In this document: one piece after another, positions 35,028 to 61,698 of the stretch
Position numbering within the stretch: the first letter of the stretch is position 1
How the letters are laid out: each line of letters begins with the position of its first letter
IMG/VR virus record: IMGVR_UViG_3300032224_001676
Coordinates: 63,787 to 127,786 of that record
Source: a virus
Reading direction: 5' to 3' (one strand)
Length of the DNA stretch: 64,000 bases
Position numbers and translations under genes: made by a program
The notes under the pieces: generated by a model
The model's input: only the letters and a program-made list of their open reading frames with translations
What the model was told of the DNA's origin: nothing
Databases searched by the model: none

Positions 35028-36071
35028 TTAGTTAATTCCAGCTAATCTTTGCATACGAGCAAATACTTCGTTGGATTCAATTATTGGTTTTTTAGGGGCC
35101 ATACCCATTGCTTTTGAAGCTGAACCTAATGACTCTTTAATTGGGGATTTTTTCTCAATTGAGGTATTTAATCCTTCAGATAAAGTTTCATATACTAGTT
35201 TAACTTCTTTTACAGAACTCGCTTTATCAAATGTTGATAATACTTTTATTTTTTGTGTTTCAGATAAGTTTTTAGCTTTGAAAATCTTATTAGTGTAAAG
35301 TAATTTAGCATTTAATAAATTAACTTCATCTAATTCGTTTTTCAATTCATTTAATGAATCCATAGCTTCTTGAAGATCTTTTTTCAACTTTTTAGATTCT
35401 TTGTCTTCTTCATCTTTCTCTTTTTCTTCTTTATCTTTCATAGCTTTTTTCTTGTTTTTCTTTTCTAAAAGCTCGATTTCAGCAAGAAGTTCGTTAAGAT
35501 CGATTTCGTCAACAACCTCTGTTTCAGTTTCCTCTTCTTCTTCTTCACCCATGTCATCATCACCCATCTCCATTTCATCATCACCAGCTTCTTTAGATTT
35601 TAATTTAGCAGCTTCTTCAGCTGAAGTTAAACCTAAATCAACCATGATATCAACTACAAGCTCTTTAAGATCTTCAGCTGATAAGTCTTCAATATCAAAA
35701 TCTTCTTCAGATTCTTCTTTATCTTCGTTTTCGTAGAGACCTTCAGTTTCTTCTTCTTCTTCTAATGCTTCATCGGCTTCTTCGTCGATTTTATTTGAAT
35801 TTTCAGATTCTTCTAGTTCAGCTAACTCACGTAAGATTTCTTCAAGATCCATCTCTGTAGCGTCATTTTGAGTTTCATCCTGCATTTCGTCTTTCATTTC
35901 GTCCTCTTCTAAATAATCTTCGTTTTCAGCTAGTGTTTCTAACTTTGCAGCGAACATTGATTTAAGATGTGGAGTAAATGCTTCTTCGAGTGCAGCTTTT
36001 GCGCTTTCTATAGCTGTTTCTTTAACGGCTCTAGCGTCAGCGATTGCTTCTTTAAACAAGGTTTTACTCAT
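35028..36071 (-). CDS. Prohead core / scaffolding protein (gp22-like)
   Basis: Highly acidic coiled coil directly upstream of the capsid gene, with many L-x-E sites; ends FARMQRLAGIN. Confidence 0.8.
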   Translation of the reverse strand: MSKTLFKEAIADARAVKETAIESAKAALEEAFTPHLKSMFAAKLETLAENEDYLEEDEMKDEMQDETQNDATEMDLEEILRELAELEESENSNKIDEEADEALEEEEETEGLYENEDKEESEEDFDIEDLSAEDLKELVVDIMVDLGLTSAEEAAKLKSKEAGDDEMEMGDDDMGEEEEEETETEVVDEIDLNELLAEIELLEKKNKKKAMKDKEEKEKDEEDKESKKLKKDLQEAMDSLNELKNELDEVNLLNAKLLYTNKIFKAKNLSETQKIKVLSTFDKASSVKEVKLVYETLSEGLNTSIEKKSPIKESLGSASKAMGMAPKKPIIESNEVFARMQRLAGIN

Positions 36072-36211
36072 TTGTTTTTCTCCTCAATTAATTTGTTTTG
36101 GAAATACGTTTATTAAGAAACGTAATAGATAATTAGTTAATAGATACTGCATAGACGAGCAGTATATTCTAATATACATATATGAGGATTCTTTAAAATT
36201 GCACATGGATG

Positions 36212-36241
36212 AAAAAGAAATGCCTCTCTTTCGAGAGGCAT
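36212..36241 (-). terminator. GAAA-tetraloop intrinsic terminator
   Basis: Minus strand ATGCCTCTC-GAAA-GAGAGGCAT followed by TTCTTTTT. Confidence 0.8.
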
Positions 36242-36269
36242 CAATCCTAAAATACTATTTTAGGAGAGG

Positions 36270-36731
36270 TTATCTATCCATTTCTTGTTGATGTCTTAAC
36301 CATTTAAATAAATATTTTTGTTTATCAAGTGGTAGTAGTTTAAAACCAGGTTCATCTTCTAAACCTTCTATATAAGCTGGTCCGTTTTCTGGGTTGTATT
36401 TAGCGAATAATTCATCATAGGTTAATATTTTTTTAGACTCTGTGTCTTCAGATTCTGTAACGTTTTTAGATTTATCCATCCAAAAGTTTTCTTCTTCGAT
36501 ACCACTATTAAGTTTACTAATGTATGATTTTAATACATTTATAAATGATTCAAGTCTTTTAATTCTTTCCTCAGAAGTAATTTTTTTACTTAATCTAAGA
36601 TCTTTAGCTAGATAAGAATCATAAAAATCATTTAATGCTGATTCAATTGAAGCAAATTCTGGGGTTGAAGTTTCTTTTAAAACTTTTTTTAATTCTTCTT
36701 TGATGATTTGTTTTAGTCGTAATTTATTCAT
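36270..36731 (-). CDS. Hypothetical head-associated protein (LKQIIKEEL leader)
   Basis: 153-aa ORF between the protease and scaffold genes. Confidence 0.6.
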   Translation of the reverse strand: MNKLRLKQIIKEELKKVLKETSTPEFASIESALNDFYDSYLAKDLRLSKKITSEERIKRLESFINVLKSYISKLNSGIEEENFWMDKSKNVTESEDTESKKILTYDELFAKYNPENGPAYIEGLEDEPGFKLLPLDKQKYLFKWLRHQQEMDR

Positions 36732-36735
36732 AATT

Positions 36736-37350
36736 TTACCAAACAGGACAAGTACCTTGTGAACAAAGTATGTCGGTTATTAATGAGTTAACTTTAGAGT
36801 ATTTATTAAAAGATTTAGCATTTAAACCCTCATTCATCATTCCTCCAGTTGGAGCCATATATGAGCCGGGGTTTGATGGTGTTGAAACAAAATCCCAACA
36901 TAATAATTCAAAATCATCTTGTACTTCCATCAATTCACCCATTTGTTTTAGTGAACCCATACCGCGAGATGAAACACCTACAGGTATATTATTTTGAAAT
37001 AATGATGTTAATATGTTACCAGATGGAGTAGGTAATAGTTCAATCATTCCTATTACATTATCACCATCCCACCATATGTCTTTTATATTATGAGATACAT
37101 TTTTTAAATTGATAATAGATGAATCTGGGTGGTCTAACTCGCCTAATGCTCGGTTAGTTTTAACATTTTCCATGTATTTACCAATTTCACGTTCCCATAA
37201 ATCTTTTGAATAGTAACGACCGTTACCATTTTTAACTTCAGCTGTAGCTAAGATACCCTTAACAAGCAAGTTCCCACTCTTACTTTTACCTTCAGCAAGT
37301 TGTACAGGTGTAGCTGTAAATGTTTGGGTTTCAATTAGTACTTGTTTCAT
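36736..37350 (-). CDS. Prohead core protease (T4 gp21-like)
   Basis: NGNGRYY, ALGELDHP, VSH, GVSSRGMGSL, WDFVSTPS. Confidence 0.95.
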   Translation of the reverse strand: MKQVLIETQTFTATPVQLAEGKSKSGNLLVKGILATAEVKNGNGRYYSKDLWEREIGKYMENVKTNRALGELDHPDSSIINLKNVSHNIKDIWWDGDNVIGMIELLPTPSGNILTSLFQNNIPVGVSSRGMGSLKQMGELMEVQDDFELLCWDFVSTPSNPGSYMAPTGGMMNEGLNAKSFNKYSKVNSLITDILCSQGTCPVW

Positions 37351-39068
37351 TATACTGATCTAGCGTCTTTAGTTCCTGGTATTTCTGTTGCTCCGCTTTT
37401 CTTTAAGGCAGATACGCTTGCATTACTAGAAGCTACTACTGGGGCTGCGTTTGGGTCTTTTGGTTTAAATAAAGATTCATCCATTTCTTTGTCTTTCTTT
37501 TCACCACCTAGTTTCTTTTTAGCTGTTTCTAATTTTTCAATTTCTTTTTTTAATTCTTTTACTTTTTTAGGGTTAACAGAATCTTCTTCAAGTTCAGTTA
37601 AAGTGGTTAATGCTTTAAGTTTTTTCTTACGCATGTTTATTTCTTTATCAATTTTAACACGCATTGCTTTATTTTTAGCATCCTCACCAGCTTCTTCAAT
37701 ATGTTTCATATCAAGTTCTTCTTTGATAAGATAAGAAACTATTGAACGAAATTTTTGCTCATACATGCTTGGATTAGCACCTAAATCTCTTAGGTCTGGG
37801 TTTTCGTCATCCCATTGGTAACTTTGATTATACATGTCATCATCGTAGTTATCTAAGTCATTAGCAAACTCATCATCCATAAACATGTCTTCACGGTTAT
37901 TAATTTCTTCACCGTTTTCGTAACTACATACTGTGGTGTCACTATCATACCAATCAGATATTTCGTATCCGTTATCGGTTTTATTTACATGCTGAGTGTA
38001 TCCTTCTTTAGAATTTTCTTGTGCTTCTTTTTTAGCTGCTTCTAAATCGTTCATGTTAGATTCAGTTAATCCAGCTGCGAATGGAGTTGTTATTTTATAG
38101 TCTCCGTTTCCTACTTTAGCTATAGGTAAATTTACCTTATGCATTGGTTCTCCATTTACTACAACAGTTTTATTATCAAAATTATTTTTAATTAAATTAA
38201 TAATTTCATTTGATAATTTGTCTTGTACTTTTTTAAGCATTGGAGGTAAATTACGAACGTCTTGACGACCTCTATGTATAGCAGCAAATACCGGTGGTAA
38301 TTTAGCTGAGATATACATTTCTATACCTGCTGGTGAATTAACCATTTTGATAAGACCTGGAAAGGCGTTAGCTGCTTCTTTAGGAAGCATATAGAATGAA
38401 GGAATAAATCGTTTTCCACCACTACCTTTTTGTGGGAGGATATGGATAATTTCTTCTAATTCATCATTCATAGACTCTTTTAGTTTAACAGGTTCCATTC
38501 CAGATGATTTATATTTACCTTTTGCTTCTTTTGGAGTACCTAAAGCTGGTGCTTCAGTTGTGTATCCTAATCCCTTAGTTCCAAATTGACCATCTTTAAC
38601 ATAATGTTGGTTATCTTTAGCTAAATTTTTAGCTACAATAGCTTTTAACTCATCAACACTTTTATCTTTGTTTTTAGGATCTTTCATTTCATCATAATAT
38701 CCAATTAAAAACTCTTGTCCGTAAACATTATCAATATTTTTAGGATCTTTATAATCGAAACCACGTGTTTCCATATCGGTTACATCTTTAGTAGGTTTCT
38801 TTTCTTCAGCTTTTGCTTCTTTTTCTTCTTTAAGAGTATTTATATTTTCACTAAAAATAGAAAACCAATCTGGTGTTCTACCTTTAGTAACAACACCACC
38901 AATTCCTTCGCTGATAACGCTTTTGCTTTTTAGAATATTGATGGCGTCATTATATGATGTATATTGGTTAACATATTCAGGAAATAAGTTACGAACAGAC
39001 TTCATAAAAACGTCTTTGTTACCTTTACCTTCTTTAAGTAGGTTGTATTGTTCTTGTATTGTTTTCAT
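37350..39068 (-). CDS. Large modular head-associated protein
   Basis: 572 aa in the head operon, with many (L/I/M)-x-E sites (LKE, ISE, LTE, MYE, IKEE). Confidence 0.6.
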   Translation of the reverse strand: MKTIQEQYNLLKEGKGNKDVFMKSVRNLFPEYVNQYTSYNDAINILKSKSVISEGIGGVVTKGRTPDWFSIFSENINTLKEEKEAKAEEKKPTKDVTDMETRGFDYKDPKNIDNVYGQEFLIGYYDEMKDPKNKDKSVDELKAIVAKNLAKDNQHYVKDGQFGTKGLGYTTEAPALGTPKEAKGKYKSSGMEPVKLKESMNDELEEIIHILPQKGSGGKRFIPSFYMLPKEAANAFPGLIKMVNSPAGIEMYISAKLPPVFAAIHRGRQDVRNLPPMLKKVQDKLSNEIINLIKNNFDNKTVVVNGEPMHKVNLPIAKVGNGDYKITTPFAAGLTESNMNDLEAAKKEAQENSKEGYTQHVNKTDNGYEISDWYDSDTTVCSYENGEEINNREDMFMDDEFANDLDNYDDDMYNQSYQWDDENPDLRDLGANPSMYEQKFRSIVSYLIKEELDMKHIEEAGEDAKNKAMRVKIDKEINMRKKKLKALTTLTELEEDSVNPKKVKELKKEIEKLETAKKKLGGEKKDKEMDESLFKPKDPNAAPVVASSNASVSALKKSGATEIPGTKDARSV

Positions 39069-39577: not shown

Positions 39578-39578
39578 A

Positions 39579-40433: not shown

Positions 40434-40465
40434 TAAGAATTTTTATTATAAATATGACGAGACCC

Positions 40466-42382
40466 TTATTCCTTTATATTAGATTCATCTAATAACGATT
40501 TCTCTTCAGGTTGATGTGTAAATACTATTTTCTTTTCTAAACTTTCAAACAATTGTTTATTTTTTAGAAATGAAACTTGAGCATTTTCTAATGCTAAAGG
40601 TGAATTACCTTTAAAATTATACCCTACATTTTTATCTTCGCCTGTGTCGTCTCCTTTTTTCATACCTACATTTCCTAATCTATCTGTACCTAAAGCATTA
40701 TCTTGAGTACCTATATCAGATGCTCTTTCTTTAGGGCGACCTAGTGTTAAATCTTCGCCATACCCAGCTGGTACTCCTCCGTCCATACCTGCATATCTGC
40801 CTTTACCGTATAAATAAGCTAAATCATGAGGTGTACCATATGATTTACCTGATTCTACTGGGTCATTACCTTCGTTTTCTATTTGTTTTAATCTAAATGT
40901 GCGTTTTTGGTCTTGTGTAATCAAGTCTCTGTATTCATCATATTGATCTTCACTTAAGTGGAATATATTATCGTAAATCCAATCAGTAGGTAATAATTTA
41001 GTTTCCATCATTTGGCGAGCTAAATCTACTTTTTCTTTCATTAATGCTATTCTTTCTTGATCGTATATGATAGAAGGAGTAGTTAATGTTAGATCAAAAT
41101 TAGTTAAGTTTTCGCTTTTATACCCTTGAGTATATAAGTGAACTAAAGCTATTTTATATAGTTCTGATAGTATAATACGTTGAATACGATCAATTGTACG
41201 AGCAAAACGAATATCCTCGGCTGCTAATGTTGCTTTACCAGTTAAGTCTTTTTCGTAACCCATAAATGCTTTAGGTACTTTTAAAGCAGCAAATAATTTA
41301 TCTCTTAAATAAACTACGTCTGTAATACCATCGTATTCCATACCTTTTGTAGGTTCAATACGAGTTGTTTGGTCATTACCTCTAATAGGAATATAAAAAT
41401 CTTCTAACATATTTTGCATGTTATATTTTAAGTTATATTCACCAGTTTGAGGATCCATAAGAGGTGTTCTTTTCATAGAAGAAATAGTCTTCTGCATAAA
41501 GTTTTCAACTTCATTTGGAGGAATAGAACCAACATTCACATAAAAAATACGTTTTTCTGGGGCGCGGGCAATTCTATGAATAAGCATAGCATCTTCCATT
41601 AAAACATATTGTTTAAATAATTTACGAGCAGGCTCTAAATATGATCTACCATATGGGAGATAGTTAACATCAGTCATTAAGCGAAAATGAGCCATTTCAT
41701 AATTATCAAAGTAGATAGAATTATCATCTTTGTTATTATTATATGAACCATAAGCGTTTGGAGTACCATAATACCCACTTCCTCCCGCGTATCCATCTGG
41801 GCTATATTTAAATCTTACCGCTGCTGGTGCTGCTTTATCATATCCTTCTTCTCTCATGATATGGTAGGCGGTGTATGGTATAACATTATACACACCAAAT
41901 TTTTCAGTGATTTCAAGTTTTAAGAAAAAATCACCATATTTGCACATTTGGCGAACCCAAGACCATAAATTAAATTCAATATTTAATACATCATAAAATA
42001 AGTTGTATAATATTTTTTGAATATCTTCATCACTACTTCTAATTTGAAGTACTTCACCTAAGTCATTTTTTAATGTACTTTCATCTGCTATAATATCTAA
42101 AGCTGAAGCAATAATAGCATCGGTATCCATAGAGTCATAATCAGAATATAATTGAGGGCGAAGATACTGGTAGTTAAGGTTTAATTGAGCTCCGTAAAGT
42201 GATGTACTATTAGTTGAATATATACGATTAAATCTATCCATTAAAGAATTATTTGCGTATTCTCCACTAGTTTGGATAGAGTTAACATCCATTACTTTTA
42301 ACTCGTTTCCTCCGGCGTTACGAATTATTACATCAGTTGAGAATAATCGTCTTAGTCGGGTAAAAATGTTAGTATCTGCCAT
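40466..42382 (-). CDS. Portal protein (T4 gp20-like)
   Basis: LMEDAMLIHRIARAPEKRIFYVNVG, MLEDFYIP, LFAALKVP, DIRFARTIDRIQ. Confidence 0.95.
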   Translation of the reverse strand: MADTNIFTRLRRLFSTDVIIRNAGGNELKVMDVNSIQTSGEYANNSLMDRFNRIYSTNSTSLYGAQLNLNYQYLRPQLYSDYDSMDTDAIIASALDIIADESTLKNDLGEVLQIRSSDEDIQKILYNLFYDVLNIEFNLWSWVRQMCKYGDFFLKLEITEKFGVYNVIPYTAYHIMREEGYDKAAPAAVRFKYSPDGYAGGSGYYGTPNAYGSYNNNKDDNSIYFDNYEMAHFRLMTDVNYLPYGRSYLEPARKLFKQYVLMEDAMLIHRIARAPEKRIFYVNVGSIPPNEVENFMQKTISSMKRTPLMDPQTGEYNLKYNMQNMLEDFYIPIRGNDQTTRIEPTKGMEYDGITDVVYLRDKLFAALKVPKAFMGYEKDLTGKATLAAEDIRFARTIDRIQRIILSELYKIALVHLYTQGYKSENLTNFDLTLTTPSIIYDQERIALMKEKVDLARQMMETKLLPTDWIYDNIFHLSEDQYDEYRDLITQDQKRTFRLKQIENEGNDPVESGKSYGTPHDLAYLYGKGRYAGMDGGVPAGYGEDLTLGRPKERASDIGTQDNALGTDRLGNVGMKKGDDTGEDKNVGYNFKGNSPLALENAQVSFLKNKQLFESLEKKIVFTHQPEEKSLLDESNIKE

Positions 42383-42401
42383 TTGTTTTTATTTATAAAT
42401 A

Positions 42402-43982
42402 TTAAAATAACCAATTTAAATCCTCGTGTTGTCCATTAACATTAAAATTATATGGATTATTTGGACTAGCTGTATTATACGCACCTAAAGGAGAATTCCT
42501 AGTTGAAGTGATATTATTTAACATATTTCGCGTAAGATCTAAACTTTGTTGTCTAAATTTCAAAGATGTGTCTCTTAAATACATAGCAATACCAAAACTC
42601 ATTACTAAATCGTCGTTATAACCCGACTGAGCTTCAGGTCGACCATTTTTCCATATAAACACTTTCATTTCCTCTAATAACCGTTTAGACTGTATAGTAA
42701 CGCTTTTATCGCCGATGTACTCCCTAAATTTATTAATTACTAGTGGTCTTGTTCTCATAGACATTGTAAAACCAGGAACGATGTTGTCTGGGTTTTCAAA
42801 CTTATTAAAATATGTTTCAGCTGTGATATTAGTGTCAGATTTAGGAGAAAAATATAGATTTCTATATTCTCTTTCTTGTATGGCGTCTAATGTAGCCCAC
42901 CCTATGTTAGCGTTTTCAACTGCTAATAATGCTTGATTATATTCTGTAGCTATAGCTACTAAAAAGTAACCAAATTCTTTAGGCGATAATTGTCCTTTAT
43001 ATTCTGCTACTTGAGTGTTAGTTGCTATATCTATAACATGAAATGCTGAAAAGTCTTTACTGTCTCCACGAGCGACGTCGGCTGTAACTAAATAATCTCG
43101 TGTATAATCAGCTGGTTCCCAGATCCATAAATTTTGGTCTGCTCCTCTTCTTTCTAATGGTTCTTTAATAGTAGTTTGACCAATAAATTCTAACCATTCA
43201 CTATAAAATACTATATCTCCAGAAGTACTAAAATCACAATCACATTCTTGGGCTGCTATTCTAGGATCACCTAATAATTCATCTTGTTTTTTCCTCCATT
43301 CCTCATTTCTTTCGGGGTGAACAAACCAAGGTAATTTAATAGGTAAAAAATCATTTTCTTGAGATTCTGCTCTAACCCATGTTTGATGAAACCAATTACC
43401 CGTACCATAAGGAGTAGACAATACAATTGCTCCACCACCAGTTGCTAAGGTTTGTTGAGCTGATGCCCATATTTCACCAATTCCTTCGATAAATGCAGCC
43501 TCATCGACCAATAGCAAAGATACTGCTTCTGATCGACCTGCATCACTACTCGCAGATGTAGCTTTAATTTGTGATCCGTTATTTAAACGTAATGATAGTT
43601 TATTATTTTCGTCTGCTGGTATTTTTAACCATGAAGGGAGGTTATCAAACATGAATTTAACCTTTGTAACCATGTTACGAGCAGTTTCTTGCTTAGTAGC
43701 TATACATAATACGTTTTTATCTTTATGGAACAACATAAGCCATAAAGAATAACCAGCAGCTAATGTTGATATACCTAATTGACGTGATTTTAATACTATA
43801 CTATATGGGTTATCTCTCCATAAATGTAATACTTTACTTTGGAATGGATAAAGATTAAAGTGTATTCTACCTCTTTGTGGGTGTTGAATAAAACAGTATT
43901 TGTTCATAAAGTGCGCCGGATCAGTGGCGCACTTTACAAACTCTTCACGAATTATCTCCCTAATATTTGGGGATTCACTCAT
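42402..43982 (-). CDS. Terminase large subunit (T4 gp17-like)
   Basis: LKSRQLGIST (Walker A), LLLVDEAAF (Walker B), STPYG, ADVARG, NDDLVMS nuclease motifs. Confidence 0.95.
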   Translation of the reverse strand: MSESPNIREIIREEFVKCATDPAHFMNKYCFIQHPQRGRIHFNLYPFQSKVLHLWRDNPYSIVLKSRQLGISTLAAGYSLWLMLFHKDKNVLCIATKQETARNMVTKVKFMFDNLPSWLKIPADENNKLSLRLNNGSQIKATSASSDAGRSEAVSLLLVDEAAFIEGIGEIWASAQQTLATGGGAIVLSTPYGTGNWFHQTWVRAESQENDFLPIKLPWFVHPERNEEWRKKQDELLGDPRIAAQECDCDFSTSGDIVFYSEWLEFIGQTTIKEPLERRGADQNLWIWEPADYTRDYLVTADVARGDSKDFSAFHVIDIATNTQVAEYKGQLSPKEFGYFLVAIATEYNQALLAVENANIGWATLDAIQEREYRNLYFSPKSDTNITAETYFNKFENPDNIVPGFTMSMRTRPLVINKFREYIGDKSVTIQSKRLLEEMKVFIWKNGRPEAQSGYNDDLVMSFGIAMYLRDTSLKFRQQSLDLTRNMLNNITSTRNSPLGAYNTASPNNPYNFNVNGQHEDLNWLF

Positions 43983-44639: not shown

Positions 44640-45170
44640 TCAAAATCCTAAATAAGATTTAATTTGTCTAATTCTTTCTTCAGTAGTACCAGCAATAATA
44701 CCAAAGTTTTGAATATGAATTAGATTTTCATTAATAACACCTTTAATAGTCATATCAATTAACTTACGATAATAGGCATCTGTTTCTCTTACACCATTAT
44801 CTTCAATATCAACTCCAATAGGTGACACATAAAATATATAATCATATTCTTCAATTAATGGAGCAGCATAAGTAGTAAATGCTACTTTATCTTTATCACG
44901 AATTGAATGAGCACATTTAGCAAATGACATTACATCAATAATTGTTCTATCAGTAATAACATTTTCACGCATTAATTCAGAACAACGTTCAGCTAAAAAT
45001 ATTGTTTGTCCTTTTAATGTGCTATCAGTATTTAATGGGATACCTAAATCACGTAAGTATTTACTACGTTCAGTAGCAAAATAATAATCTTTAAATTCAG
45101 GTAATTCTTTTAATGCATTTACTAATGTAGATTTACCTACACTCATTGTTCCACAAAATCCTATTTTCAT
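44640..45170 (-). CDS. NadR/AAA_28-like P-loop nucleotide kinase
   Basis: MKIGFCGTMSVGKST, ITDRTIID, DNGVRETD; start moved to 45170 because the promoter element lies at 45185-45216. Confidence 0.7.
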   Translation of the reverse strand: MKIGFCGTMSVGKSTLVNALKELPEFKDYYFATERSKYLRDLGIPLNTDSTLKGQTIFLAERCSELMRENVITDRTIIDVMSFAKCAHSIRDKDKVAFTTYAAPLIEEYDYIFYVSPIGVDIEDNGVRETDAYYRKLIDMTIKGVINENLIHIQNFGIIAGTTEERIRQIKSYLGF

Positions 45171-45184
45171 AACGATTGTTTTTA

Positions 45185-45216
45185 TAAAGATAATAAAAAA
45201 TGGCCCGAAGGCCAAA
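45185..45216 (-). promoter_or_regulatory. Fused terminator hairpin and -33/-7 promoter (copy 1)
   Basis: Minus strand TTTGGCC-TTCG-GGCCATTTTTTAT-TATCTTTA; 20 bp between TTTG and TATCTTTA. Confidence 0.7.
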
Positions 45217-45240: not shown

Positions 45241-45648
45241 TTATGATCCTAACCAATCTGAAACAGCATCTACTACTTCATCAAAAGTTAAATGTTCTCC
45301 AAAATCAAGACTAGGATCGTTTGAGTCAATTACCCATGAATTAAAATTCTCATCATCTGTATCCTGGTATACATCATCTGCTCCAATTGCTATTTCTTGT
45401 TTTCCTTTTTTGTAGACCAACATATCCATATCTCCATCTTCTGCTGATACTCTTGGTAGCCAAGAGATTGCGCGGTATGGTTTTATTTGGCCGTGAACTC
45501 CGGTGCCTTGAAATATATAATCCATTAAATCATTGATGGCTTCATATGCTGGTGGAGTGTAGTCATCGTTTTCTTTTAGTTTGTTTTTCATTTGGCTTTC
45601 AGTAATCAAACCAGCCAATTTTTGCATTTTTAAGAATTCTTTATTCAT
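45241..45648 (-). CDS. Acidic protein with KMQKLAG leader (candidate internal head protein)
   Basis: Starts MNKEFLKMQKLAGLITES; late-type motif upstream. Confidence 0.6.
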   Translation of the reverse strand: MNKEFLKMQKLAGLITESQMKNKLKENDDYTPPAYEAINDLMDYIFQGTGVHGQIKPYRAISWLPRVSAEDGDMDMLVYKKGKQEIAIGADDVYQDTDDENFNSWVIDSNDPSLDFGEHLTFDEVVDAVSDWLGS

Positions 45649-49016: not shown

Positions 49017-49029
49017 AACCTTTTTTTTA

Positions 49030-49061
49030 TAAAGATAACATTGTTTTTTTAAGAAGCCAAA
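49030..49061 (-). promoter_or_regulatory. -33/-7 promoter TTTG-N20-TATCTTTA
   Basis: Plus strand taaagata at 49030-49037 and caaa at 49058-49061. Confidence 0.6.
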
Positions 49062-50242
49062 CCTATTTTAATTGTATGACCCCATCCATTTTCTTTTACT
49101 GATTCTACATCATCGCCACTTGAACATATAACCATCATCATTGGCTTAAATGTTTTAACTTCATTTATGCCTATATGGCCATCAGTTAATATAATAAGAC
49201 TATTAAACTCTTTATGATCGTTAAAATATGCAATAAATGGATTCATATCAGTACCACCTCTACCTGTTATTTTATCAGGTATGTCACCTTTATATTCATA
49301 TATATTAGTGATATCGGCGTCACCTTCAGCTATAGTGATCGACACGCCAGTTTTATGCATATGATTAATCTCATTAAAAAACTCAATTAAATCTTCATTA
49401 CCAACTGAACCTGATGTATCAACTCCTACTAATATTTTCTTTTTAGTTTTGATTTTTAATGCTGGGTTTTCTTGGAAGCGTTTGTTTAGTTTACGTCTTG
49501 TTTTTTTAGTGTACGTTTTTGATGATGTACCACAAAATCGTCTAAAATATGTTTTCCAATCGTATGATGGTTCTGAGTCTTCAAGCATTCCGTCAATCCA
49601 ACTTTGTAATTCTGCTGGTATAAATCCTCTATCTTTTTGTGAACTAACAATATCTTTAATTTGATGTTCAATTTGTGCTTTAGCTAATTTAACATCAGCT
49701 TCACTCATTCCATCAAATTCTTTCCATGTTGGGTGTAAACCATCAAATTCCCCAGGTCCTGTTAAAGCATCCATTAAACCCTGTAATAATGGACTTGTAC
49801 CTTCATCTAATGCTTTTTGCAGTAGGTTGTAATATACTTTGGTGCCTGCTTTTTCAGGTAAATCTAACTCAGGAAATGACGATAATAATATAATACCTTC
49901 TGTTGGGTAATATTCTGGTGTTAGATACTGGTTGATTTCTAAGTCTGCTGCTATGTTATGTAATTCTTGGTTTGGAAACCATTCTCTGTCTTCTAAATGA
50001 TTAAAACAGATATGCAGTAATTCATGTTTTAATAACCCAATTTTCTTTTTATCATTGTCTAATGAGTCCCAAAAATCTTTATTAACTGCTAATTGGTAGT
50101 TAATGTTTTGTTTACATACACCAGCAGTGGGCACATCTTTTCTTTCAACTTTATTAAGTGTTGATAAAAATAAACCATAAAATGGTTCACTAAACATTAA
50201 CTGTTTACCTATTCGTGATAAGTCTTCTTGTAAATTTGTCAT
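49049..50242 (-). CDS. DUF2201-type metallopeptidase plus VWA domain protein
   Basis: HELLH zinc motif, NIAADLEIN, MIDAS DTSGS, GRGGTD, LTDG. Confidence 0.85.
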   Translation of the reverse strand: MTNLQEDLSRIGKQLMFSEPFYGLFLSTLNKVERKDVPTAGVCKQNINYQLAVNKDFWDSLDNDKKKIGLLKHELLHICFNHLEDREWFPNQELHNIAADLEINQYLTPEYYPTEGIILLSSFPELDLPEKAGTKVYYNLLQKALDEGTSPLLQGLMDALTGPGEFDGLHPTWKEFDGMSEADVKLAKAQIEHQIKDIVSSQKDRGFIPAELQSWIDGMLEDSEPSYDWKTYFRRFCGTSSKTYTKKTRRKLNKRFQENPALKIKTKKKILVGVDTSGSVGNEDLIEFFNEINHMHKTGVSITIAEGDADITNIYEYKGDIPDKITGRGGTDMNPFIAYFNDHKEFNSLIILTDGHIGINEVKTFKPMMMVICSSGDDVESVKENGWGHTIKIGLAS

Positions 50243-52684: not shown

Positions 52685-55465
52685 TTACTTAATTATGCCT
52701 GCTAATTTTTGCATTCTTGTAAATGACTCTTTTATAGGTTGTGTTGGTTTATTTTGAGTTGCTTTTTCATTTCTATCAGCAGCTGTCTCAGTGTTAGTAA
52801 GTTCATTAGCAGCCGCAACAATTGCTCCTCTAATTTGTGATTTATTCTTTAAGAACTCTGGGCTGAGGAATGGTATTATTTCGCGTAAAATAACTTGTAT
52901 AGCTTCTTCAGCACTGTCGATATTTTTAAAACGAGTTACTAAAGTAGGATTTTTAAGAATGTTTTGGATAGCAGTAGAAGCATCTTTTTCTTCTTCTGTA
53001 ATCCTGTTTCTCATTCCGTACATTAAACTTCGTAGTTTTGTCTTGTCTTGAATTAATTTTGGGTTAAATATACCTATAAGACCAGTAACAAGATCTTTAA
53101 GTTCATCTTTTTTGTTAATTAATTTAAGGTATCGTTGTATATCTTTTCTTTTCCCAATTTCTGCTCCCACTTTATCCGCGTCTGGTTGAGCTTTAGTACT
53201 TTTAGAATTTCTATCAAAATCACCAGTTCGTATTTGTTGTGCTGTGTCACCAGGTTTCATATAAACATAATTTCCTCCAGCTTGGGGTGCAAACCCCATA
53301 CCTTGGAGTTCTTTTTGTTCTTGTTTAGAAAGTTTTGAAGGATCTACAATACTAACATCTGTATTTCCGTCTGCAGCATACATGCTTCCTAATAATGCTA
53401 TAATAGCTACTCTGTTAGCTTTAATTTCTTCAGGTGTTATTCCTAATTCACTGAATAAATCATCAATAGCAGCCTCTTGTAAGTAAATTTGGGCTTCAGT
53501 TACTTGTGTAATTGGAGCTTGTGTATTAGCTCCAGGTTTAGTAGCAACTGCTTTAGCTCTTGGAGCTAACTCAATACCAGTAAGAGCAGATACTTTTTTC
53601 AGAAATGAATCTGGTGATTTTCTAAGATTTGGGATAAGTTTAGCTAATTTTTTAGCTGTTTCTGAAGCGTTACTGTCTTGAATTTTTTTAAAGTCGTTGT
53701 CTGAAAGACTAGTTATAGTGTTTTTACCTAATTGTGTAAAAATATTAAGTTTAGGACTCATGCGAGATAAAACCATCGCTATTTGTCCATTTCTATTTAA
53801 TTTAGATAAATTAGTAACGTCTTGTTTAGCTTGAGCAGGTCTAATAGGAGCAGCCTTTTTATCAGATACATCTAATGGTGGAAGTACTACACCAGTTTTA
53901 TCAGATTTATTTGATGATGTTTTTGGTGTTTCTTCATCAGATGGTTTTTCTTTTTCTGATGGTTTTTCTTTTTTACCACCGTATGTGTCAAAAAGAGGAT
54001 CATATCCTAATAAAGTTGTAGGATTAGGAGGTGTTACTGGGGCGTCTTTTTCTCCAACTTCACCTACTCTAATAGCAGATTGGGTGGCTGTGTCATCGGT
54101 TCTATCAATTTGGGTTAATTTATCAATGTCGTTTCCCCCACCAATTTTTAACTCATATGTCCCTCCATCTTCTAGCTCAATTGTGTTTCCACTTCTAGTA
54201 TATTTTATACCATCTTCTTTTAATTGAGATTCAATATCATCAATAGCTGCCTCAGCAGTGTTATTAGCTCTATTAACATTTAAGTCTCCTCCTTGTGCAT
54301 CTACATTAGAGTTATTAGCAGAGTGACTTGATGCTCCTAAAATTGTTTCAGAATAGTTTTGACCATTCTTTAAGAATTTAATAATATCAGCATTTTCCTG
54401 GCTAATTTTCTTTAAATCGTCTTGGTCTAATTGGCTAGAACCATTTTTAAATTTAATAAAGTTAACAGTTTGATTATCATCACTATCAATATCTAATCCT
54501 TGTTTTTTAGCATCTGCTAAATCTGGGTTATCTGTCTCTAAATCTCCTAAATCGTCTGATGAGTCGTCAGCATCGTCGCCTCCATCATCACCTCCATTGT
54601 CATCGGGAGATTGTCCATTATCATCTAAAGCAGCACCAGATTGCCCACCAGCATCTGCTGAAGATTCCCCATTTAAAAAGCTGTTAATTTGATCATTAGA
54701 GAAACCTGCTTTAGCAAGTTGTCTAATAGTTTCTTGAGAAGCAGCATCGCTTCCATCCATATCAATATCTGTTACTGCATCTACGGCATTTCCTATATCG
54801 TCAGCTAACCCAACATAAGCTGTACCTAAAAACATTGCGCCTGAAAGAAGTTTACCTATAAGCGTATCAGTAAAAAATTTATTGAGAGAAGATATTACTC
54901 CTTTATTTTCAGTTTTACCTGCTTTATTAAGTTTACTTCCAACTGATTTCCATGTGTCTTTAGTAATAAATATTTCTTTTGTTTGGTCGCCTTCTTCGTC
55001 TGTAGGTTGATCAAAATAATAACCTTCTACACCATTAACTGTAACCCATTTTGGTTCCTCAGCCTTTGCTTCATTTAATGATTTGTTTTTTATAATACTA
55101 ATTGCAGCTGCTACTTCTTCTTTATTTTTAAGATCTATTCCTGCGTTACGTAATGCACTTAATGCTGCTAATGCTTCAGCTGGTTTTTTAGTAGATGTTA
55201 ATGATTTGAGAAACTTATCTAATTTTGGGAGTTGTTTTTTAGAAAAATTATCCTTTACAACTGAGAAGAATTTTTTAAGTTTGTTTTCCGTTAACTGGCT
55301 TTCTAATAGTGTAGATCTGCGAGTTAATAAATGTTCTTTAATGAGAAAATTAAGTAGAACATTATGGTTTTTAGTGTATGTTATTTTATTATGATTTTTA
55401 TTAGTAGGTTGAGCACCCGCTAATTTTTGCATACGAGCGAACTGCTCGTTAAGAGGTTGTATCAT
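52685..55465 (-). CDS. 926-aa protein with RMQKLAG at both ends, a hydrophobic segment and an OmpA-like domain
   Basis: N-terminal LNEQFARMQKLAG, C-terminal IKESFTRMQKLAGIIK; LIGKLLSGAMFLGTAYVGLA; IKFKNGSSQL...ILGASS...LNVNRA. Confidence 0.6.
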   Translation of the reverse strand: MIQPLNEQFARMQKLAGAQPTNKNHNKITYTKNHNVLLNFLIKEHLLTRRSTLLESQLTENKLKKFFSVVKDNFSKKQLPKLDKFLKSLTSTKKPAEALAALSALRNAGIDLKNKEEVAAAISIIKNKSLNEAKAEEPKWVTVNGVEGYYFDQPTDEEGDQTKEIFITKDTWKSVGSKLNKAGKTENKGVISSLNKFFTDTLIGKLLSGAMFLGTAYVGLADDIGNAVDAVTDIDMDGSDAASQETIRQLAKAGFSNDQINSFLNGESSADAGGQSGAALDDNGQSPDDNGGDDGGDDADDSSDDLGDLETDNPDLADAKKQGLDIDSDDNQTVNFIKFKNGSSQLDQDDLKKISQENADIIKFLKNGQNYSETILGASSHSANNSNVDAQGGDLNVNRANNTAEAAIDDIESQLKEDGIKYTRSGNTIELEDGGTYELKIGGGNDIDKLTQIDRTDDTATQSAIRVGEVGEKDAPVTPPNPTTLLGYDPLFDTYGGKKEKPSEKEKPSDEETPKTSSNKSDKTGVVLPPLDVSDKKAAPIRPAQAKQDVTNLSKLNRNGQIAMVLSRMSPKLNIFTQLGKNTITSLSDNDFKKIQDSNASETAKKLAKLIPNLRKSPDSFLKKVSALTGIELAPRAKAVATKPGANTQAPITQVTEAQIYLQEAAIDDLFSELGITPEEIKANRVAIIALLGSMYAADGNTDVSIVDPSKLSKQEQKELQGMGFAPQAGGNYVYMKPGDTAQQIRTGDFDRNSKSTKAQPDADKVGAEIGKRKDIQRYLKLINKKDELKDLVTGLIGIFNPKLIQDKTKLRSLMYGMRNRITEEEKDASTAIQNILKNPTLVTRFKNIDSAEEAIQVILREIIPFLSPEFLKNKSQIRGAIVAAANELTNTETAADRNEKATQNKPTQPIKESFTRMQKLAGIIK

Positions 55466-55722: not shown

Positions 55723-55970
55723 TCTGCTTTAGGCAAGAACCAATTAGAACACCACATTGATGGATCTTTTATCTGCTCATTAGTTATAGGATCTATTAAT
55801 TCATTAGTACCCATATAATTTTGGTAATTTTTATTACCACAGTAGTGTTTATCCTCTTGCATGCTGTAAAATCTACAAACATGACATCCAAATCCATCAT
55901 GTGAATACATGTATGGTGGGTATTTTTTCTCTGTTTGAGTTTCGCTTAATAAGTCAATTAGTTTAATCAT
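55719..55970 (-). CDS. Cys-rich small protein with MIKLIDLLSE leader
   Basis: CHVC...C...CSNW. Confidence 0.55.
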   Translation of the reverse strand: MIKLIDLLSETQTEKKYPPYMYSHDGFGCHVCRFYSMQEDKHYCGNKNYQNYMGTNELIDPITNEQIKDPSMWCSNWFLPKAE

Positions 55971-55974
55971 TTTA

Positions 55975-57266: not shown

Positions 57267-57267
57267 A

Positions 57268-58625: not shown

Positions 58626-58633
58626 AGAATAAC

Positions 58634-60006: not shown

Positions 60007-60707
60007 TTGGTTTCATTCATTAAAAAATCAAATACTTGATCTATATCTTCTTTAGCAGCAGTCATATGATCATCTGCCCAGTCATGTCCGTTTTGGAGTA
60101 TAGAGTCTATTACCATAGGGTCCATCTCCATTAATATTTCAATTTGGCGTTTCATTTGTTTTAAATTACTAAAAAACATATAATTCTCAACTTCTCCGTT
60201 TCCTCCTTCTCCTAAAGATTCTTTATTATATTTTTTGTTTTTAGTTGCTTTAACAGCATCTTTTTTACTCTTGCCAGATGCTACCATACGAGATATCATA
60301 ACGTCCGCAAAGTCATTATCTCCGTCACCATCTTGGTCTTTTTTAGATTTACTGTTATTTAAAACGTCTTTTATTATTTCTTTAAGTTTACTTTTATTCA
60401 TCTTATTAAGTTTATTTTTAGCCCTATCTACCGCACTATAGTACGCTACTTGGTCTGCTTTAGGCCCATAGTTCTTAAATAACTCTTTATGATTTTTACC
60501 AACCATACTTTGATAATAATAGTTGATTAAATCTGTTTCTTTGTCTGATAAATTAGATGGGGTAGTTTTATCATTTAAATACTCTTTGATTTCAGAAGAG
60601 TATAATGCTTTCATGTATTTTTTAGCTTTTTCAACAGATGAAGAGCATCCTTTTCTCTTCCCGGTTTCTTTATTATAAACACATTTTCCTTTTCTAATAT
60701 ACGGCAT
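60003..60707 (-). CDS. Modular protein with an EF-hand-like DxDxDGD motif
   Basis: DQDGDGDNDFAD; LKEIIK; GHDWADDH. Confidence 0.55.
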   Translation of the reverse strand: MPYIRKGKCVYNKETGKRKGCSSSVEKAKKYMKALYSSEIKEYLNDKTTPSNLSDKETDLINYYYQSMVGKNHKELFKNYGPKADQVAYYSAVDRAKNKLNKMNKSKLKEIIKDVLNNSKSKKDQDGDGDNDFADVMISRMVASGKSKKDAVKATKNKKYNKESLGEGGNGEVENYMFFSNLKQMKRQIEILMEMDPMVIDSILQNGHDWADDHMTAAKEDIDQVFDFLMNETK

Positions 60708-60728
60708 GACGTTTATTTTTATAAAGAT

Positions 60729-60750
60729 GGGGGGTATTTTACACCCCCCT
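60729..60750 (-). terminator. G/C hairpin, probable terminator
   Basis: Minus strand GGGGGTG-TAAAAT-ACCCCCC followed by ATCTTT; lies downstream of the Hc1-like gene. Confidence 0.5.
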
Positions 60751-60771
60751 TATCTTTTAGTTTAGGTATAC

Positions 60772-60942
60772 TTATTTAGTTTTACCTTCAGCAACTGATG
60801 CTTTATTATAAGCTGCAATTACTTTTTTTAGGTTACTAGCTGCTTTTCTAGCGCGACCTGCTGCTGCTTTTGTAGTTTCGTTATGGTTTTCCACTAGCTC
60901 ATTCCACAAAGTTTGCATTTGTTCAAATAACTCTTGTTTCAT
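60772..60942 (-). CDS. Histone-H1-like Hc1-family protein, 56 aa (not in the ORF track)
   Basis: MKQELFEQMQTLWNELVENHNETTKAAAGRARKAASNLKKVIAAYNKASVAEGKTK*; KAAxxRARKA...KAS pattern. Confidence 0.7.
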   Translation of the reverse strand: MKQELFEQMQTLWNELVENHNETTKAAAGRARKAASNLKKVIAAYNKASVAEGKTK

Positions 60943-60960
60943 ATATTTTATTTTTAGGGG

Positions 60961-61698
60961 TTATACTTCTTCAGTAGAGATTTGCTGTCTTGTGAAATAA
61001 GTAAGAGCGTTACCAATTTGTCTTACAAGTTTTTTATCTCCTAATTGTTTAGCTGAGTTTAACGCAGCTGTTAAATCTTTTTGTACTTCATCAGTTGATC
61101 CGCCTCCACTTGTAGAATCATCAGTTGTATCATCAGCTGTATCTTTAGTATCAGTGTCTTCAGCATCTAAAGTTATTTCTTCTTCTTCGTCCTCATCTTT
61201 TTTAGCTTCTTCTAAATCTATTCCGTCTTCAGTTAAAGCAGCCATAATTTCTTTACGAATAGCTTCTTTTAACTCAGTTTTAGACATTTTCTTATTTTTA
61301 GGTTTTTTAGACTCAGCGAAAGTATCTTCATCAGTATCAAATGGAAAATCTTCCATTTCACCATTATAGTTGTAAATATCGTCTGTATATGAATTAATAT
61401 TACTACTATCAAAACCAGTTATATATGAAAGTAAAGATTGCTTTATACTTTTTACCATATCTTCTGGTAGTTCGCCCAATGATAAGCCTAAGAATTGGGT
61501 AGCGTCTCCATCGTCTGTTAATGGTTCAATGAGCATTTCTTTAGTACCACGGTCTAATGAGTCCCATGTTTCTTCAAATTTAGCTTCATCACTACTAAAA
61601 TTCATTTCATTTATTTTACTAACATATTGCGACTCAGTAATTACTCCTGCAAGTTTTTGCATTTTAATAAACTGTTCATTGATTAATGTTTTGGCCAT
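60961..61698 (-). CDS. Acidic protein with KMQKLAG leader (candidate internal head protein)
   Basis: Start moved to ATG 61698 (MAKTLINEQFIKMQKLAGVITES), just after the late-type motif at 61714. Confidence 0.65.
   Translation of the reverse strand: MAKTLINEQFIKMQKLAGVITESQYVSKINEMNFSSDEAKFEETWDSLDRGTKEMLIEPLTDDGDATQFLGLSLGELPEDMVKSIKQSLLSYITGFDSSNINSYTDDIYNYNGEMEDFPFDTDEDTFAESKKPKNKKMSKTELKEAIRKEIMAALTEDGIDLEEAKKDEDEEEEITLDAEDTDTKDTADDTTDDSTSGGGSTDEVQKDLTAALNSAKQLGDKKLVRQIGNALTYFTRQQISTEEV

What the first reader, a model, noticed from the sequence alone, without database searches (positions are those of the whole stretch)
35028..61698. Scaffold C-terminal peptide (R/K)MQ(K/R)LAG reused as a tag on unrelated proteins: candidate capsid-cargo address code
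Seen: the scaffold ends IIESNEVFARMQRLAGIN (about 35037-35057). The same motif occurs at the N-terminus of 45241-45648 (EFLKMQKLAGLITES) and 60961-61698 (INEQFIKMQKLAGVITES), and at both termini of 52685-55465 (LNEQFARMQKLAG; IKESFTRMQKLAGIIK). The rest of these proteins share no obvious similarity, and the motif is always flanked by (I/L)-x-E. Established: scaffold C-termini bind coat protein in several dsDNA phages (e.g. P22), T4 gp21 cleaves after (L/I)-x-E, and T4 internal proteins carry a cleavable capsid-targeting sequence. Inference: cargo proteins mimic the scaffold's coat-binding tip to be co-assembled into the prohead, then are released by the protease. This would be a portable protein-packaging signal different from the T4 one.
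Basis: partly seen in the sequence, partly recalled or inferred. Interest (0 to 1): 0.85.

Follow-up and report, generated by a model that had tools for sequence, protein, structure and literature searches.

The report
Phage capsid-targeting tag copies scaffold tail
A T4-like aquatic phage carries the short peptide that ends its head-scaffold protein on the ends of many unrelated small proteins, most likely as a removable address label that loads them into the capsid.

Summary
[RK]MQ[KR]LAG occurs 5 times in the 127.8-kb virus record. All 5 are in frame and at protein termini: the scaffold C-terminus, p135 and p245 N-termini, and both ends of p926. Shuffles give 0.

The phage is T4-like (Gp23 capsid protein, Peptidase_S77 protease, T4-type portal). 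Its closest isolate is Flavobacterium phage immuto.

A variant of the peptide ends the scaffold-like protein in 78 of 78 related loci examined, and also in immuto, Mel-JY01 and RM378. It follows a PI(V/I)E site.

In IMG/VR the exact 9-mer is terminal in 104 of 113 distinct contexts. Non-C-terminal copies are followed by (L/I/V/M)xE in 80 of 81. They sit on mostly unrelated ORFans. A tag profile finds 1,234 cluster representatives. Reversed-pattern and cellular-genome controls are near chance.

Best reading: a cleavable prohead-targeting propeptide, analogous to the T4 capsid targeting sequence but unrelated in sequence and identical to the scaffold's own tail. That tail looks like a helix-and-hook coat-binding motif.

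Packaging, cleavage and the receptor (capsid protein or core) are inferred, not shown. I rate it a new variant of a known kind. No paper in the searched library contains the motif.

The parts
35028..36071 (-). Scaffold-like protein (347 aa, pI 4.26), encoded between the protease and the major capsid protein
   Evidence: Gene order and composition. No Pfam or PHROG family. AF2 model: long helices, then a disordered linker at 307-334, then a short terminal helix. Only a 14-column weak match to T4 gp22 (hhalign probability 4%).
35031..35075 (-). Scaffold tail SNEVFARMQRLAGIN, directly after PIIE (35076-35087)
   Evidence: A tail variant is present in 78 of 78 related loci that had an upstream ORF. 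R, L and A are invariant in 61 aligned tails. Modelled as helix 335-343 plus a non-helical end.
45241..45648 (-). p135, a tagged ORFan; mature part pI 4.07
   Evidence: No Pfam or PHROG family. Six full-length homologs keep the tag. No fold match.
45598..45648 (-). N-terminal tag MNKEFLKMQKLAGLITE on p135, ending in ITE
   Evidence: The same leader is almost letter for letter on 116 of 120 listed database proteins. AF2 places residues 3-11 in a helix separate from the globular domain.
52685..55465 (-). p926, a large poorly structured protein tagged at both ends
   Evidence: Homolog P0136 (29% identity, E 4e-84) keeps both tags. P0134, P0136 and P0137 each have a second tag near the C-terminus.
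55412..55465 (-). N-terminal tag MIQPLNEQFARMQKLAGA on p926
   Evidence: No [LI]xE directly after it; the next sites end at residues 44 and 55.
52688..52726 (-). C-terminal tag SFTRMQKLAGIIK on p926, directly after IKE (52727-52735)
60961..61698 (-). p245, a tagged acidic protein (mature part pI 4.11), taking the ATG at 61698 as start
   Evidence: The promoter-like box ATATTTATAATAAAA begins at about 61721, 23 nt upstream of this ATG. The ORF listing extends the frame to a GTG at 61752.
61633..61698 (-). N-terminal tag MAKTLINEQFIKMQKLAGVITE on p245
36736..37350 (-). Prohead protease, T4 gp21 family; the presumed enzyme that removes the tags
   Evidence: Pfam Peptidase_S77, E 4.1e-30, 105 bits against a cut-off of 27. 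phrog_207.
33302..34999 (-). Major capsid protein (Gp23 family); candidate receptor of the tail and tag
   Evidence: Pfam Gp23, E 2.5e-76. 57% identity to the immuto capsid protein. Conserved LLE and GLLE sites end at residues 9 and 35.
40466..42382 (-). Portal protein (T4 gp20 type); context of the head module
   Evidence: Pfam Portal_T4, E 2.2e-67.

Best explanation
The roughly 20-residue peptide (L-[NS]-E-x-F-x-[RK]-M-Q-K-L-A-G-[IL]-I-x-E) is most likely a detachable prohead-targeting signal. Its original copy is the C-terminal tail of the scaffold protein: a short amphipathic helix (FxRMQKLA) ending at Gly, followed by a hydrophobic/basic hook (I-I-K), held on a disordered linker. During head assembly this tail would dock the scaffold to a receptor inside the prohead. 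The receptor is most likely the inner face of the gp23-type capsid protein and less likely another core component. Other proteins that carry the same peptide at an N-terminus, a C-terminus or both would use the same receptor and be co-assembled into the prohead. The gp21-family (S77) protease would then cut at the (L/I/V)xE sites that bracket the peptide, freeing scaffold and passengers from the shell. Scaffold fragments and tags would leave, and the mature passengers would stay with the DNA and probably be ejected into the host. What is shown: the tag's sequence, position, conservation and distribution, its bracketing sites, and its co-occurrence with the protease family. What is inferred: binding, packaging, cleavage and ejection.
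For: 1) Non-random occurrence. There are 5 of 5 terminal copies in the record, with 0.00 expected in shuffles.
2) Collection-wide counts. The reversed control pattern gives 1 locus.
3) Terminal position. Of 113 distinct contexts, 72 are N-terminal, 32 C-terminal and 9 internal or other. The RWQKLAGI variant gives 93 C-terminal, 6 N-terminal and 0 internal of 99.
4) Bracketing sites. [LIVM]xE starts 0-2 residues after LAG in 80 of 81 non-C-terminal copies. It lies at -7 or -6 before the Phe in 29 of 32 C-terminal copies.
5) Scaffold tail. It is present in 78 of 78 MCP-linked loci and in immuto, Mel-JY01 and RM378.
6) Protease. Peptidase_S77 is in the window. It is in 14 of 30 motif-bearing records, including 3 of 3 that are at least 90% complete.
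7) Passengers are mostly unrelated. 78 mature parts fall into 52 BLAST clusters. None of 54 reaches a Pfam cut-off. A tag profile finds 1,234 50%-identity representatives at E<=1e-3, and 148 of the best 150 have the tag at the N-terminus.
8) Protein-level selection. Leu, Ala, Gly and Phe codons inside the tag vary freely.
9) Likely late expression. 45 of 72 tagged genes have TAT[TG]TAT[AT] just upstream, against 6.5-19% of ORFs of at least 100 aa. In the window that box precedes the portal gene, several other long ORFs and p245.
10) Shape. AF2 models give a helix plus a non-helical end on a disordered linker in the scaffold, and a separate tag helix in p135.
11) Precedents read in papers. T4 internal-protein propeptides of 10-19 aa target proteins to the core and are removed by gp21, and Alt is processed at both termini (passages of PMC9026906 and PMC5694885). 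The 80alpha scaffold and SaPI1 CpmB share a C-terminal helix-and-hook (RIIK) that binds the capsid protein (passages of PMC5644958).
12) Cellular genomes. The same 9-mer occurs 26 times in 596 Gb, against about 17 expected by my own estimate. Only 1 is phage-like, and the others are not terminal tags.
Against: No experimental or proteomic datum places any tagged protein in a virion, and I found none in print for immuto or Mel-JY01.

The protease's specificity is assumed from T4.

The mature passengers are acidic: median pI 4.4, and 38 of 52 are below 5. T4 IPs are described as basic.

Tagged passengers are not universal in the clade. G007, G031 and Mel-JY01 have only the scaffold tail. Ten other large records gave no MQKLAG at all and at most one WQxLAG each.

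The N-terminal tag of p926 has no cleavage-type site directly after it.

In N-terminal tags the hook is followed by more protein and is not a free C-terminus, so the binding mode could differ.

The tagged genes lie outside the head module, among nucleotide-metabolism and unknown genes.

T4 literature places CTS affinity on the core, not the shell.
Confidence: 0.65

Rival explanations
1. The address function is the same but the receptor differs. The peptide binds the scaffold/core (itself or another core protein), as described for the T4 CTS, and not the capsid protein. The scaffold tail would then drive core polymerisation, and passengers would co-polymerise with the core.
For: [quoted passage not shown] The head module is T4-like. 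Passengers are acidic like the scaffold.
Against: Scaffold C-termini that have been resolved bind the capsid protein (80alpha helix-and-hook). The tail here has the same helix-plus-I-I-K layout on a flexible linker. A cleavage-type site just before the tail makes sense for releasing the scaffold from the shell. The T4 gp22 C-terminus has no such peptide, so T4 is not a direct guide.
Confidence: 0.25
2. The tagged proteins are not delivered cargo. They are accessory scaffold or core components (fillers or size/shape modifiers, comparable to CpmB) that are degraded and expelled during maturation.
For: Mature parts are acidic like the scaffold. p245 has 9 and p926 has 10 [LI]xE sites. CpmB shows that a second protein sharing a scaffold tail can act in assembly.
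Against: The tag sits on 52 mostly unrelated clusters among 78 mature parts, and a tag profile finds 1,234 cluster representatives; that breadth is hard to reconcile with a structural role. The number per genome varies from 0 to 4. p135 has only two sites, both in the leader, and a compact predicted domain, which suggests a stable product.
Confidence: 0.2
3. The peptide has nothing to do with head assembly. It would be a general interaction helix, for example for a chaperonin, clamp, protease adaptor or host factor, that happens to be shared by the scaffold and other proteins.
For: There is no direct evidence of packaging. The tagged genes are scattered among non-structural genes. immuto encodes GroES/GroEL.
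Against: This does not explain the bracketing (L/I/V)xE sites. It does not explain the restriction to a clade with an S77 protease. It does not explain why the universal copy is the scaffold's extreme C-terminus next to the capsid gene, or the shared promoter-like box. In cellular genomes the 9-mer is at chance level and not terminal.
Confidence: 0.07
4. The repeats are a by-product of recombination (shuffled gene starts) or of chance, and have no function of their own.
For: Tagged genes often lie in tandem (L019, L042, L045, L059 and L099). The leader is nearly identical on different proteins, as expected if cassettes recombine at the leader.
Against: Synonymous codons vary while the residues are invariant. 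p926 homologs at 29% identity keep both tags. C-terminal and internal copies exist. The controls are near zero.
Confidence: 0.03

Closest known systems
T4 capsid targeting sequence (CTS) of internal proteins IPI/IPII/IPIII and the propeptides of Alt
   Same: Both are short terminal propeptides on diverse, poorly conserved proteins of a T4-type phage. Both end at a gp21-type (L/I)xE site, and the genes lie outside the head module. Alt, like p926, has propeptides at both ends (passages of PMC9026906 and PMC5694885). T4 IPII and IPIII both start MKTYQEFIAE, read from the T4 record.
   Different: The sequence is unrelated and about twice as long. Here the tag equals the scaffold's own C-terminal tail, whereas T4 gp22 ends ...VYAKVASRF. 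The tag is also used C-terminally and internally. The passengers are mostly acidic, not basic. The clade differs: aquatic phages near Flavobacterium phage immuto.
Helix-and-hook C-terminal motif (RIIK) shared by the phage 80alpha scaffolding protein and SaPI1 CpmB
   Same: Both are C-terminal amphipathic helices followed by a short I-I-K-type hook on a flexible linker. In both cases a second, otherwise different protein carries the same motif and uses the scaffold's binding site (passages of PMC5644958).
   Different: 80alpha is a siphovirus with a different capsid and protease system. The motif there is always C-terminal. CpmB is a satellite's size-determination factor, not cargo. Binding to the capsid protein is shown there by cryo-EM and genetics and is only inferred here.
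P1 DarB N-terminal packaging signal
   Same: An N-terminal stretch of about 30 residues is sufficient to send a reporter into the capsid of a myovirus, and the passenger is an anti-restriction protein delivered with the DNA (abstract and passages of PMC9024508).
   Different: It is a single protein in a stepwise Dar assembly. No relation to a scaffold tail and no shared consensus across many proteins is described in the passages I read.
Engineered P22 virus-like-particle loading by fusion to the scaffold's coat-binding C-terminal part; encapsulin cargo-loading peptides
   Same: The logic is the same: a short piece that binds the inside of an HK97-fold shell is fused to arbitrary cargo. For P22 I saw only the search listing and abstracts. 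Encapsulin peptides are recalled knowledge and were not checked here.
   Different: The P22 case is man-made. Encapsulin peptides are not removed by a protease, and encapsulins are not virions. There is no sequence relation.

Membership tests
T4-type capsid targeting sequence (CTS) propeptide | Short propeptide at a protein terminus | tested here: met
   104 of 113 distinct contexts are terminal. 148 of the best 150 profile hits have the tag at the N-terminus.
T4-type capsid targeting sequence (CTS) propeptide | Ends at a gp21-type (L/I)xE cleavage site | tested here: met
   [LIVM]xE starts 0-2 residues after LAG in 80 of 81 non-C-terminal copies. It lies at -7/-6 in 29 of 32 C-terminal copies. 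This is sequence only; cleavage itself was not observed.
T4-type capsid targeting sequence (CTS) propeptide | The phage encodes a gp21-family prohead protease | tested here: met
   Peptidase_S77, E 4.1e-30. Found in 3 of 3 motif-bearing records that are at least 90% complete.
T4-type capsid targeting sequence (CTS) propeptide | Sequence similarity to the T4 CTS (MKTYQEFIAE) | tested here: not met
   The tag consensus has no resemblance to the T4 IPII/IPIII leader read. A different protein of the window, p572, does start MKTIQEQYNLLKE.
T4-type capsid targeting sequence (CTS) propeptide | Sufficient to package a foreign protein; the mature protein is present in virions | not testable with these tools
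   This needs fusion and packaging experiments and virion proteomics. No such data were found in print.
Scaffold C-terminal helix-and-hook coat-binding motif (80alpha SP/CpmB type) | Amphipathic helix plus a short hook at the extreme C-terminus, on a flexible linker | tested here: met
   AF2 model: helix 335-343, a non-helical end, no secondary structure at 307-334, and pLDDT below 50 at 313-324. The consensus tail is FxRMQKLAG-I-I-K. This is a prediction, not a structure.
Scaffold C-terminal helix-and-hook coat-binding motif (80alpha SP/CpmB type) | Binds the capsid protein N-arm and the A/P cleft | not testable with these tools
   No binding or structural data exist for this clade. It needs cryo-EM of proheads or peptide-binding assays.
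Scaffold C-terminal helix-and-hook coat-binding motif (80alpha SP/CpmB type) | Sequence homology to the RIIK motif | tested here: inconclusive
   Only the I-I-K end resembles RIIK. The stretch is too short for a statistical test, and the 80alpha sequence itself was not fetched.
T4 gp22 scaffold family | Profile similarity to gp22 | tested here: inconclusive
   hhalign of 34 scaffold-like proteins against T4 gp22 gives one 14-column match (KNLSETQKIKVLS / KDLTESQKEKVSA) at probability 4%. Gene position and acidic coiled-coil character agree.

The most novel reading that the evidence does not exclude
Nature uses scaffold-tail mimicry as a general, orientation-independent cargo-loading code. Any protein that acquires the scaffold's roughly 15-residue coat-binding helix-and-hook, bracketed by protease sites, becomes a capsid passenger. 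In one abundant clade of aquatic T4-like phages this has produced more than a thousand families of packaged proteins, probably ejected and probably anti-defence. This would be the phage counterpart of encapsulin cargo-loading peptides, and a ready-made tag for loading proteins into Bacteroidota phage heads.
Probability: 0.4. Interest if true: 0.85.

Novelty: new variant of a known kind. Interest (0 to 1): 0.72.

Why it matters
If correct, it gives three things.

First, it offers a mechanistic clue that T4 never gave: the address label is the scaffold's own docking peptide. That makes the long-open question of what a capsid targeting sequence binds directly testable.

Second, it gives a sequence rule that flags candidate internal or ejected proteins in uncultured aquatic phages. 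A tag profile finds 1,234 cluster representatives, and those tagged proteins scanned against Pfam matched no family of known function. This is a pool in which early-acting anti-defence factors can be sought.

Third, it supplies a short natural tag, usable at either end of a protein, for loading proteins into heads of phages of Flavobacteria.

It also links T4-type propeptide targeting with the scaffold-tail sharing seen in 80alpha/SaPI1.

Tried and rejected
1) Complex prediction of the capsid protein (alignment A1) with the last 45 residues of the scaffold (alignment A2). The job was accepted after many queue-full answers. The result was 'no answer' (score 0.00, controls not run). It says nothing for or against binding.

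2) Mutual information between the tail class (M/W/F) and capsid-protein columns in 61 paired sequences. The top columns include N-terminal positions, but the W-type tails form one lineage. The signal is therefore confounded by relatedness, and I draw nothing from it.

3) Function of the passengers.
- Pfam gave nothing above cut-off for 54 tagged proteins (54 of the 55 references, the 32-aa L043 fragment left out).
- Two DUFs (DUF6576, DUF7438) appeared among 8 database hits.
- 12 longer tagged proteins have no precomputed Pfam domain.
- The p135 AF2 model (pLDDT 77) has no Foldseek PDB match at E<=0.001.
- The ESM Atlas had nothing usable for p926.

4) Homology of the scaffold-like protein to T4 gp22: hhalign probability 4%.

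5) Print. 'MQKLAG' appears in 0 papers. 21 papers hold 'capsid targeting sequence', and none of the 18 listed deals with this clade. No virion proteome turned up for immuto or Mel-JY01. Supplements were not opened.

7) Tags in W-type genomes. Ten large records without MQKLAG have at most one WQxLAG each, 7 of them exactly one. A tag HMM on two of them found one divergent tag (MLKLAG) in G032 and none in G031.

Full report
**What is there**

The window is the right half of a 127,786-bp IMG/VR virus record, 78% complete by CheckV and 32% G+C. All long ORFs lie on the - strand.

The region 33-44 kb is a T4-type head module:
- major capsid protein, 33302-34999 (Pfam Gp23, E 2.5e-76)
- an acidic 347-aa protein in the gp22 position, 35028-36071
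- prohead protease, 36736-37350 (Peptidase_S77, E 4.1e-30)
- portal, 40466-42382 (Portal_T4)
- large terminase, 42402-43982

The nearest isolates by capsid protein are Flavobacterium phage vB_FspM_immuto (57% identity), Microcystis phage Mel-JY01 (49%) and Rhodothermus phage RM378 (35%).

[RK]MQ[KR]LAG occurs exactly five times in all six frames of the whole record. Each copy is in frame at a protein end: the scaffold C-terminus, the p135 and p245 N-termini, and both ends of p926. Shuffles give 0.00 matches for a DNA version that covers three of the five copies. Outside the tag the four proteins are unrelated (best E 0.5).

**The scaffold tail is the universal copy**

I examined 80 loci related by capsid protein, the best of at least 599 in IMG/VR. 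78 had an ORF ending just before the capsid gene. All 78 end in R-[MWF]-x-x-L-A-[GFN] plus 1-8 residues, mostly preceded by P-I-[VIM]-E. In 61 aligned tails, R, L and A are invariant (I used 60 of the 64 complete locus pairs and left out four near-duplicates).

Related isolates show the same tail:
- immuto ends ...SRWQKLAGIIK
- Mel-JY01 ends ...ERMKKLAGIVK
- the acidic RM378 protein before its capsid gene ends ...ERIKRLAGL
- T4 gp22 ends ...VYAKVASRF and has no such tail

An AF2 model of the scaffold (34-sequence alignment, pLDDT 70.7) shows long helices and a small confident helical domain. A linker without secondary structure follows at 307-334 and holds both IKE and IIE. It ends in helix 335-343 (VFARMQRLA) and a non-helical terminus.

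**The tag on other proteins**

The reversed pattern returned 1. Of 113 distinct contexts, 72 are N-terminal (the Phe lies 3-9 residues after a Met), 32 are C-terminal (scaffold tails) and 9 are internal or other.

The internal ones mostly follow an acidic N-terminal stretch and read ...LNE-SFLKMQKLAGVITE-AQY, so they have sites on both sides. After LAG, [LIVM]xE begins within 0-2 residues in 80 of 81 copies. Before the C-terminal copies it lies at -7/-6 in 29 of 32. The W variant (RWQKLAGI) gave 93 C-terminal, 6 N-terminal and 0 internal of 99.

Position-by-position consensus:
- N-terminal: M-K-K-Q-I-L-[NS]-E-E-F-x-R-M-Q-K-L-A-G-[IL]-I-T-E
- C-terminal: K-[KQ]-P-I-[VI]-E-S-N-x-A-F-x-R-M-Q-K-L-A-G-I-I-K-stop

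**Who carries it**

- 78 mature parts of at least 30 aa (of 81) fall into 52 BLAST clusters, the largest with 14 members.
- None of 54 full-length tagged proteins reaches a Pfam cut-off.
- A word-based search with residues 1-40 of p135 found 157 proteins of 74-237 aa. Of the 120 listed, 116 start with the tag, and 4 have it after an upstream extension that ends in a Met. Their mature parts form 32 clusters.
- Only 12 longer proteins were found, none with a Pfam domain.
- A profile of 50 N-terminal tags (47 of the 55 references, plus 3 from the window) was searched against 1.84 billion 50%-identity representatives. It found 1,234 at E<=1e-3 and 88 at E<=1e-10. 148 of the best 150 have the tag at the N-terminus. 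Three large proteins also have one near the C-terminus.
- p926 is 29% identical to one of those, P0136 (E 4e-84), and both tags are kept.
- Mature parts are acidic: median pI 4.4, and 38 of 52 are below 5.

**Where it occurs**

All motif-bearing contigs look like fragments of genomes of about 160 kb. S77 protease was found in 14 of the 30 largest motif-bearing records, including 3 of 3 that are at least 90% complete.

Tags per genome, by a tag HMM on eight records:

| Record | Tagged proteins besides the scaffold |
|---|---|
| G000 (this record) | 3 proteins, 4 tags |
| immuto | 2 (gp083; gp230 with MQFLAG) |
| G010 | 3 |
| G013 | 4 |
| G001 (fragment) | 1 |
| G032 | 1 (MLKLAG) |
| G007 | 0 |
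| G031 | 0 |

The scaffold tail is present in seven of the eight; the G001 fragment yielded none. Ten other large records had no MQKLAG at all; seven of them have exactly one WQxLAG and three have none. Mel-JY01 has only the tail.

In 596 Gb of prokaryotic genomes the 9-mer pattern occurs 26 times, against roughly 17 expected by my own estimate. Only one looks like the phage motif: a scaffold tail on a 22.5-kb contig binned with a Flavobacteriaceae MAG. The others are not terminal tags.

**Selection acts on the protein, and expression is probably late**

Inside the tag, Leu uses five codons, Ala four, Gly four and Phe two, while the residues are invariant.

45 of 72 N-terminally tagged genes have TAT[TG]TAT[AT] within about 80 nt upstream of the tag. 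Among ORFs of at least 100 aa in six genomes, 6.5-19% have it within 60 nt. In the window the fuller box ATATTTATAA[TC]AAAA sits 15-31 nt before the ATG of the portal gene, the gene after it, several other long ORFs, and p245. That this box is a late promoter is my inference.

**Mechanism**

The layout matches two documented systems.

In T4, 10-19-residue N-terminal propeptides target internal proteins to the prohead core and are removed by gp21. Alt is processed at both ends, and the internal proteins differ between related phages while keeping CTS-like leaders (passages of PMC9026906 and PMC5694885).

In 80alpha, the last 16-21 residues of the scaffold form an amphipathic helix plus an RIIK hook that binds the capsid protein N-arm and A/P cleft. 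SaPI1 CpmB carries the same motif and uses the same site (passages of PMC5644958).

The peptide here combines both. It is the scaffold's helix-plus-I-I-K tail, and it is also a leader on many other proteins, bracketed by gp21-type sites. I therefore read it as a prohead address label that works by copying the scaffold's docking peptide and is cut off at maturation.

The receptor is open. I favour the capsid protein by analogy with 80alpha. By recalled knowledge, herpesvirus scaffolds have a C-terminal capsid-binding peptide that is likewise cut off by the related protease. The T4 literature points to the core.

Whether the passengers are ejected effectors or expendable core components is also open. 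Their number, diversity and patchy distribution favour effectors. Their acidity and, in p245 and p926, their many cleavage-type sites favour the second.

**Comparison and novelty**

This works like a T4 CTS, but it fails the one sequence criterion for being the T4 CTS. It differs from T4 in being identical to the scaffold tail and in being usable at either end.

I found no paper containing the motif. None of the 18 listed papers among the 21 that mention capsid targeting sequences concerns this clade. Searches cover only the held library, and supplements were not opened.

I rate it a new variant of a known kind with strong comparative support and no experimental support.

Noticed in passing
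window 37350-39068 (-), p572, directly upstream of the protease: It starts MKTIQEQYNLLKE-G. Orthologs in five relatives start MK[TS]LQxxYNLIKEGKG. T4 IPII and IPIII start MKTYQEFIAE-A. A T4-like CTS may survive on this core-position protein, so the phage could use two address codes.
   Followed up: partly
window, - strand; box starts at about 61721, 46714, 42401, 40454, 33210, 30856, 29544, 21510, 16412, 14289, 12643 and 10163: The conserved box ATATTTATAA[TC]AAAA lies 15-31 nt upstream of ATGs (portal, p284, p304, p557, several other long ORFs, p245). There are 17 hits on the coding strand against 7 on the other. It is probably the phage's late promoter.
   Followed up: partly
window 36072-36269 (-), the gap between p153 and the scaffold gene: A G+C-rich hairpin followed by a T-run (GATGCCTCTCGAAAGAGAGGCATTTCTTTTT), then a TATGTATAT box. 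The scaffold and capsid genes look like a separate transcription unit.
   Followed up: no
P0133 (database protein, 47 aa): Two tandem copies of the tag in one short ORF.
   Followed up: no
G010:C1:43225-43851 (+): A homolog of the C-terminal domain of p245 carries a degenerate internal tag, IEKLTWQKKAGIISE-TQY. Homologs in G013 and G031 seem untagged. Tags appear to be gained, to decay and to be lost on one protein family.
   Followed up: partly
L019, L042, L045, L059/L060, L099 (IMG/VR loci): Two differently tagged genes lie next to each other in one locus. This recalls the variable internal-protein loci of T-even phages; that comparison is from recalled knowledge.
   Followed up: no
L382 (contig of a Flavobacteriaceae MAG, 22.5 kb): A scaffold tail ...KQPIVESNDVFARMQKLAGLI-stop on a contig binned with a Flavobacteriaceae genome. 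It is a hint at the host group, in line with immuto's host.
   Followed up: no
window 30857-31543, 31545-32264, 44640-45215 (-): Auxiliary genes sit next to the head module: PhoH-like ATPase, a phosphatidylserine-decarboxylase-family protein (Pfam E 3.4e-20) and thymidylate kinase.
   Followed up: no
window 47823-50242 (-) and RM378 locus L238 4753-7188: An ATPase (phrog_1297) plus HNH endonuclease (phrog_1314) gene pair lies in the window. A pair annotated ATPase and HNH endonuclease lies next to the capsid gene of RM378. Their homology was not tested.
   Followed up: no
window 33302-34999 (-), capsid protein N-terminus: Conserved LLE-S (ends at residue 9) and GLLE-G (ends at residue 35) in 61 sequences. 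These are likely maturation cleavage sites of the capsid protein.
   Followed up: no
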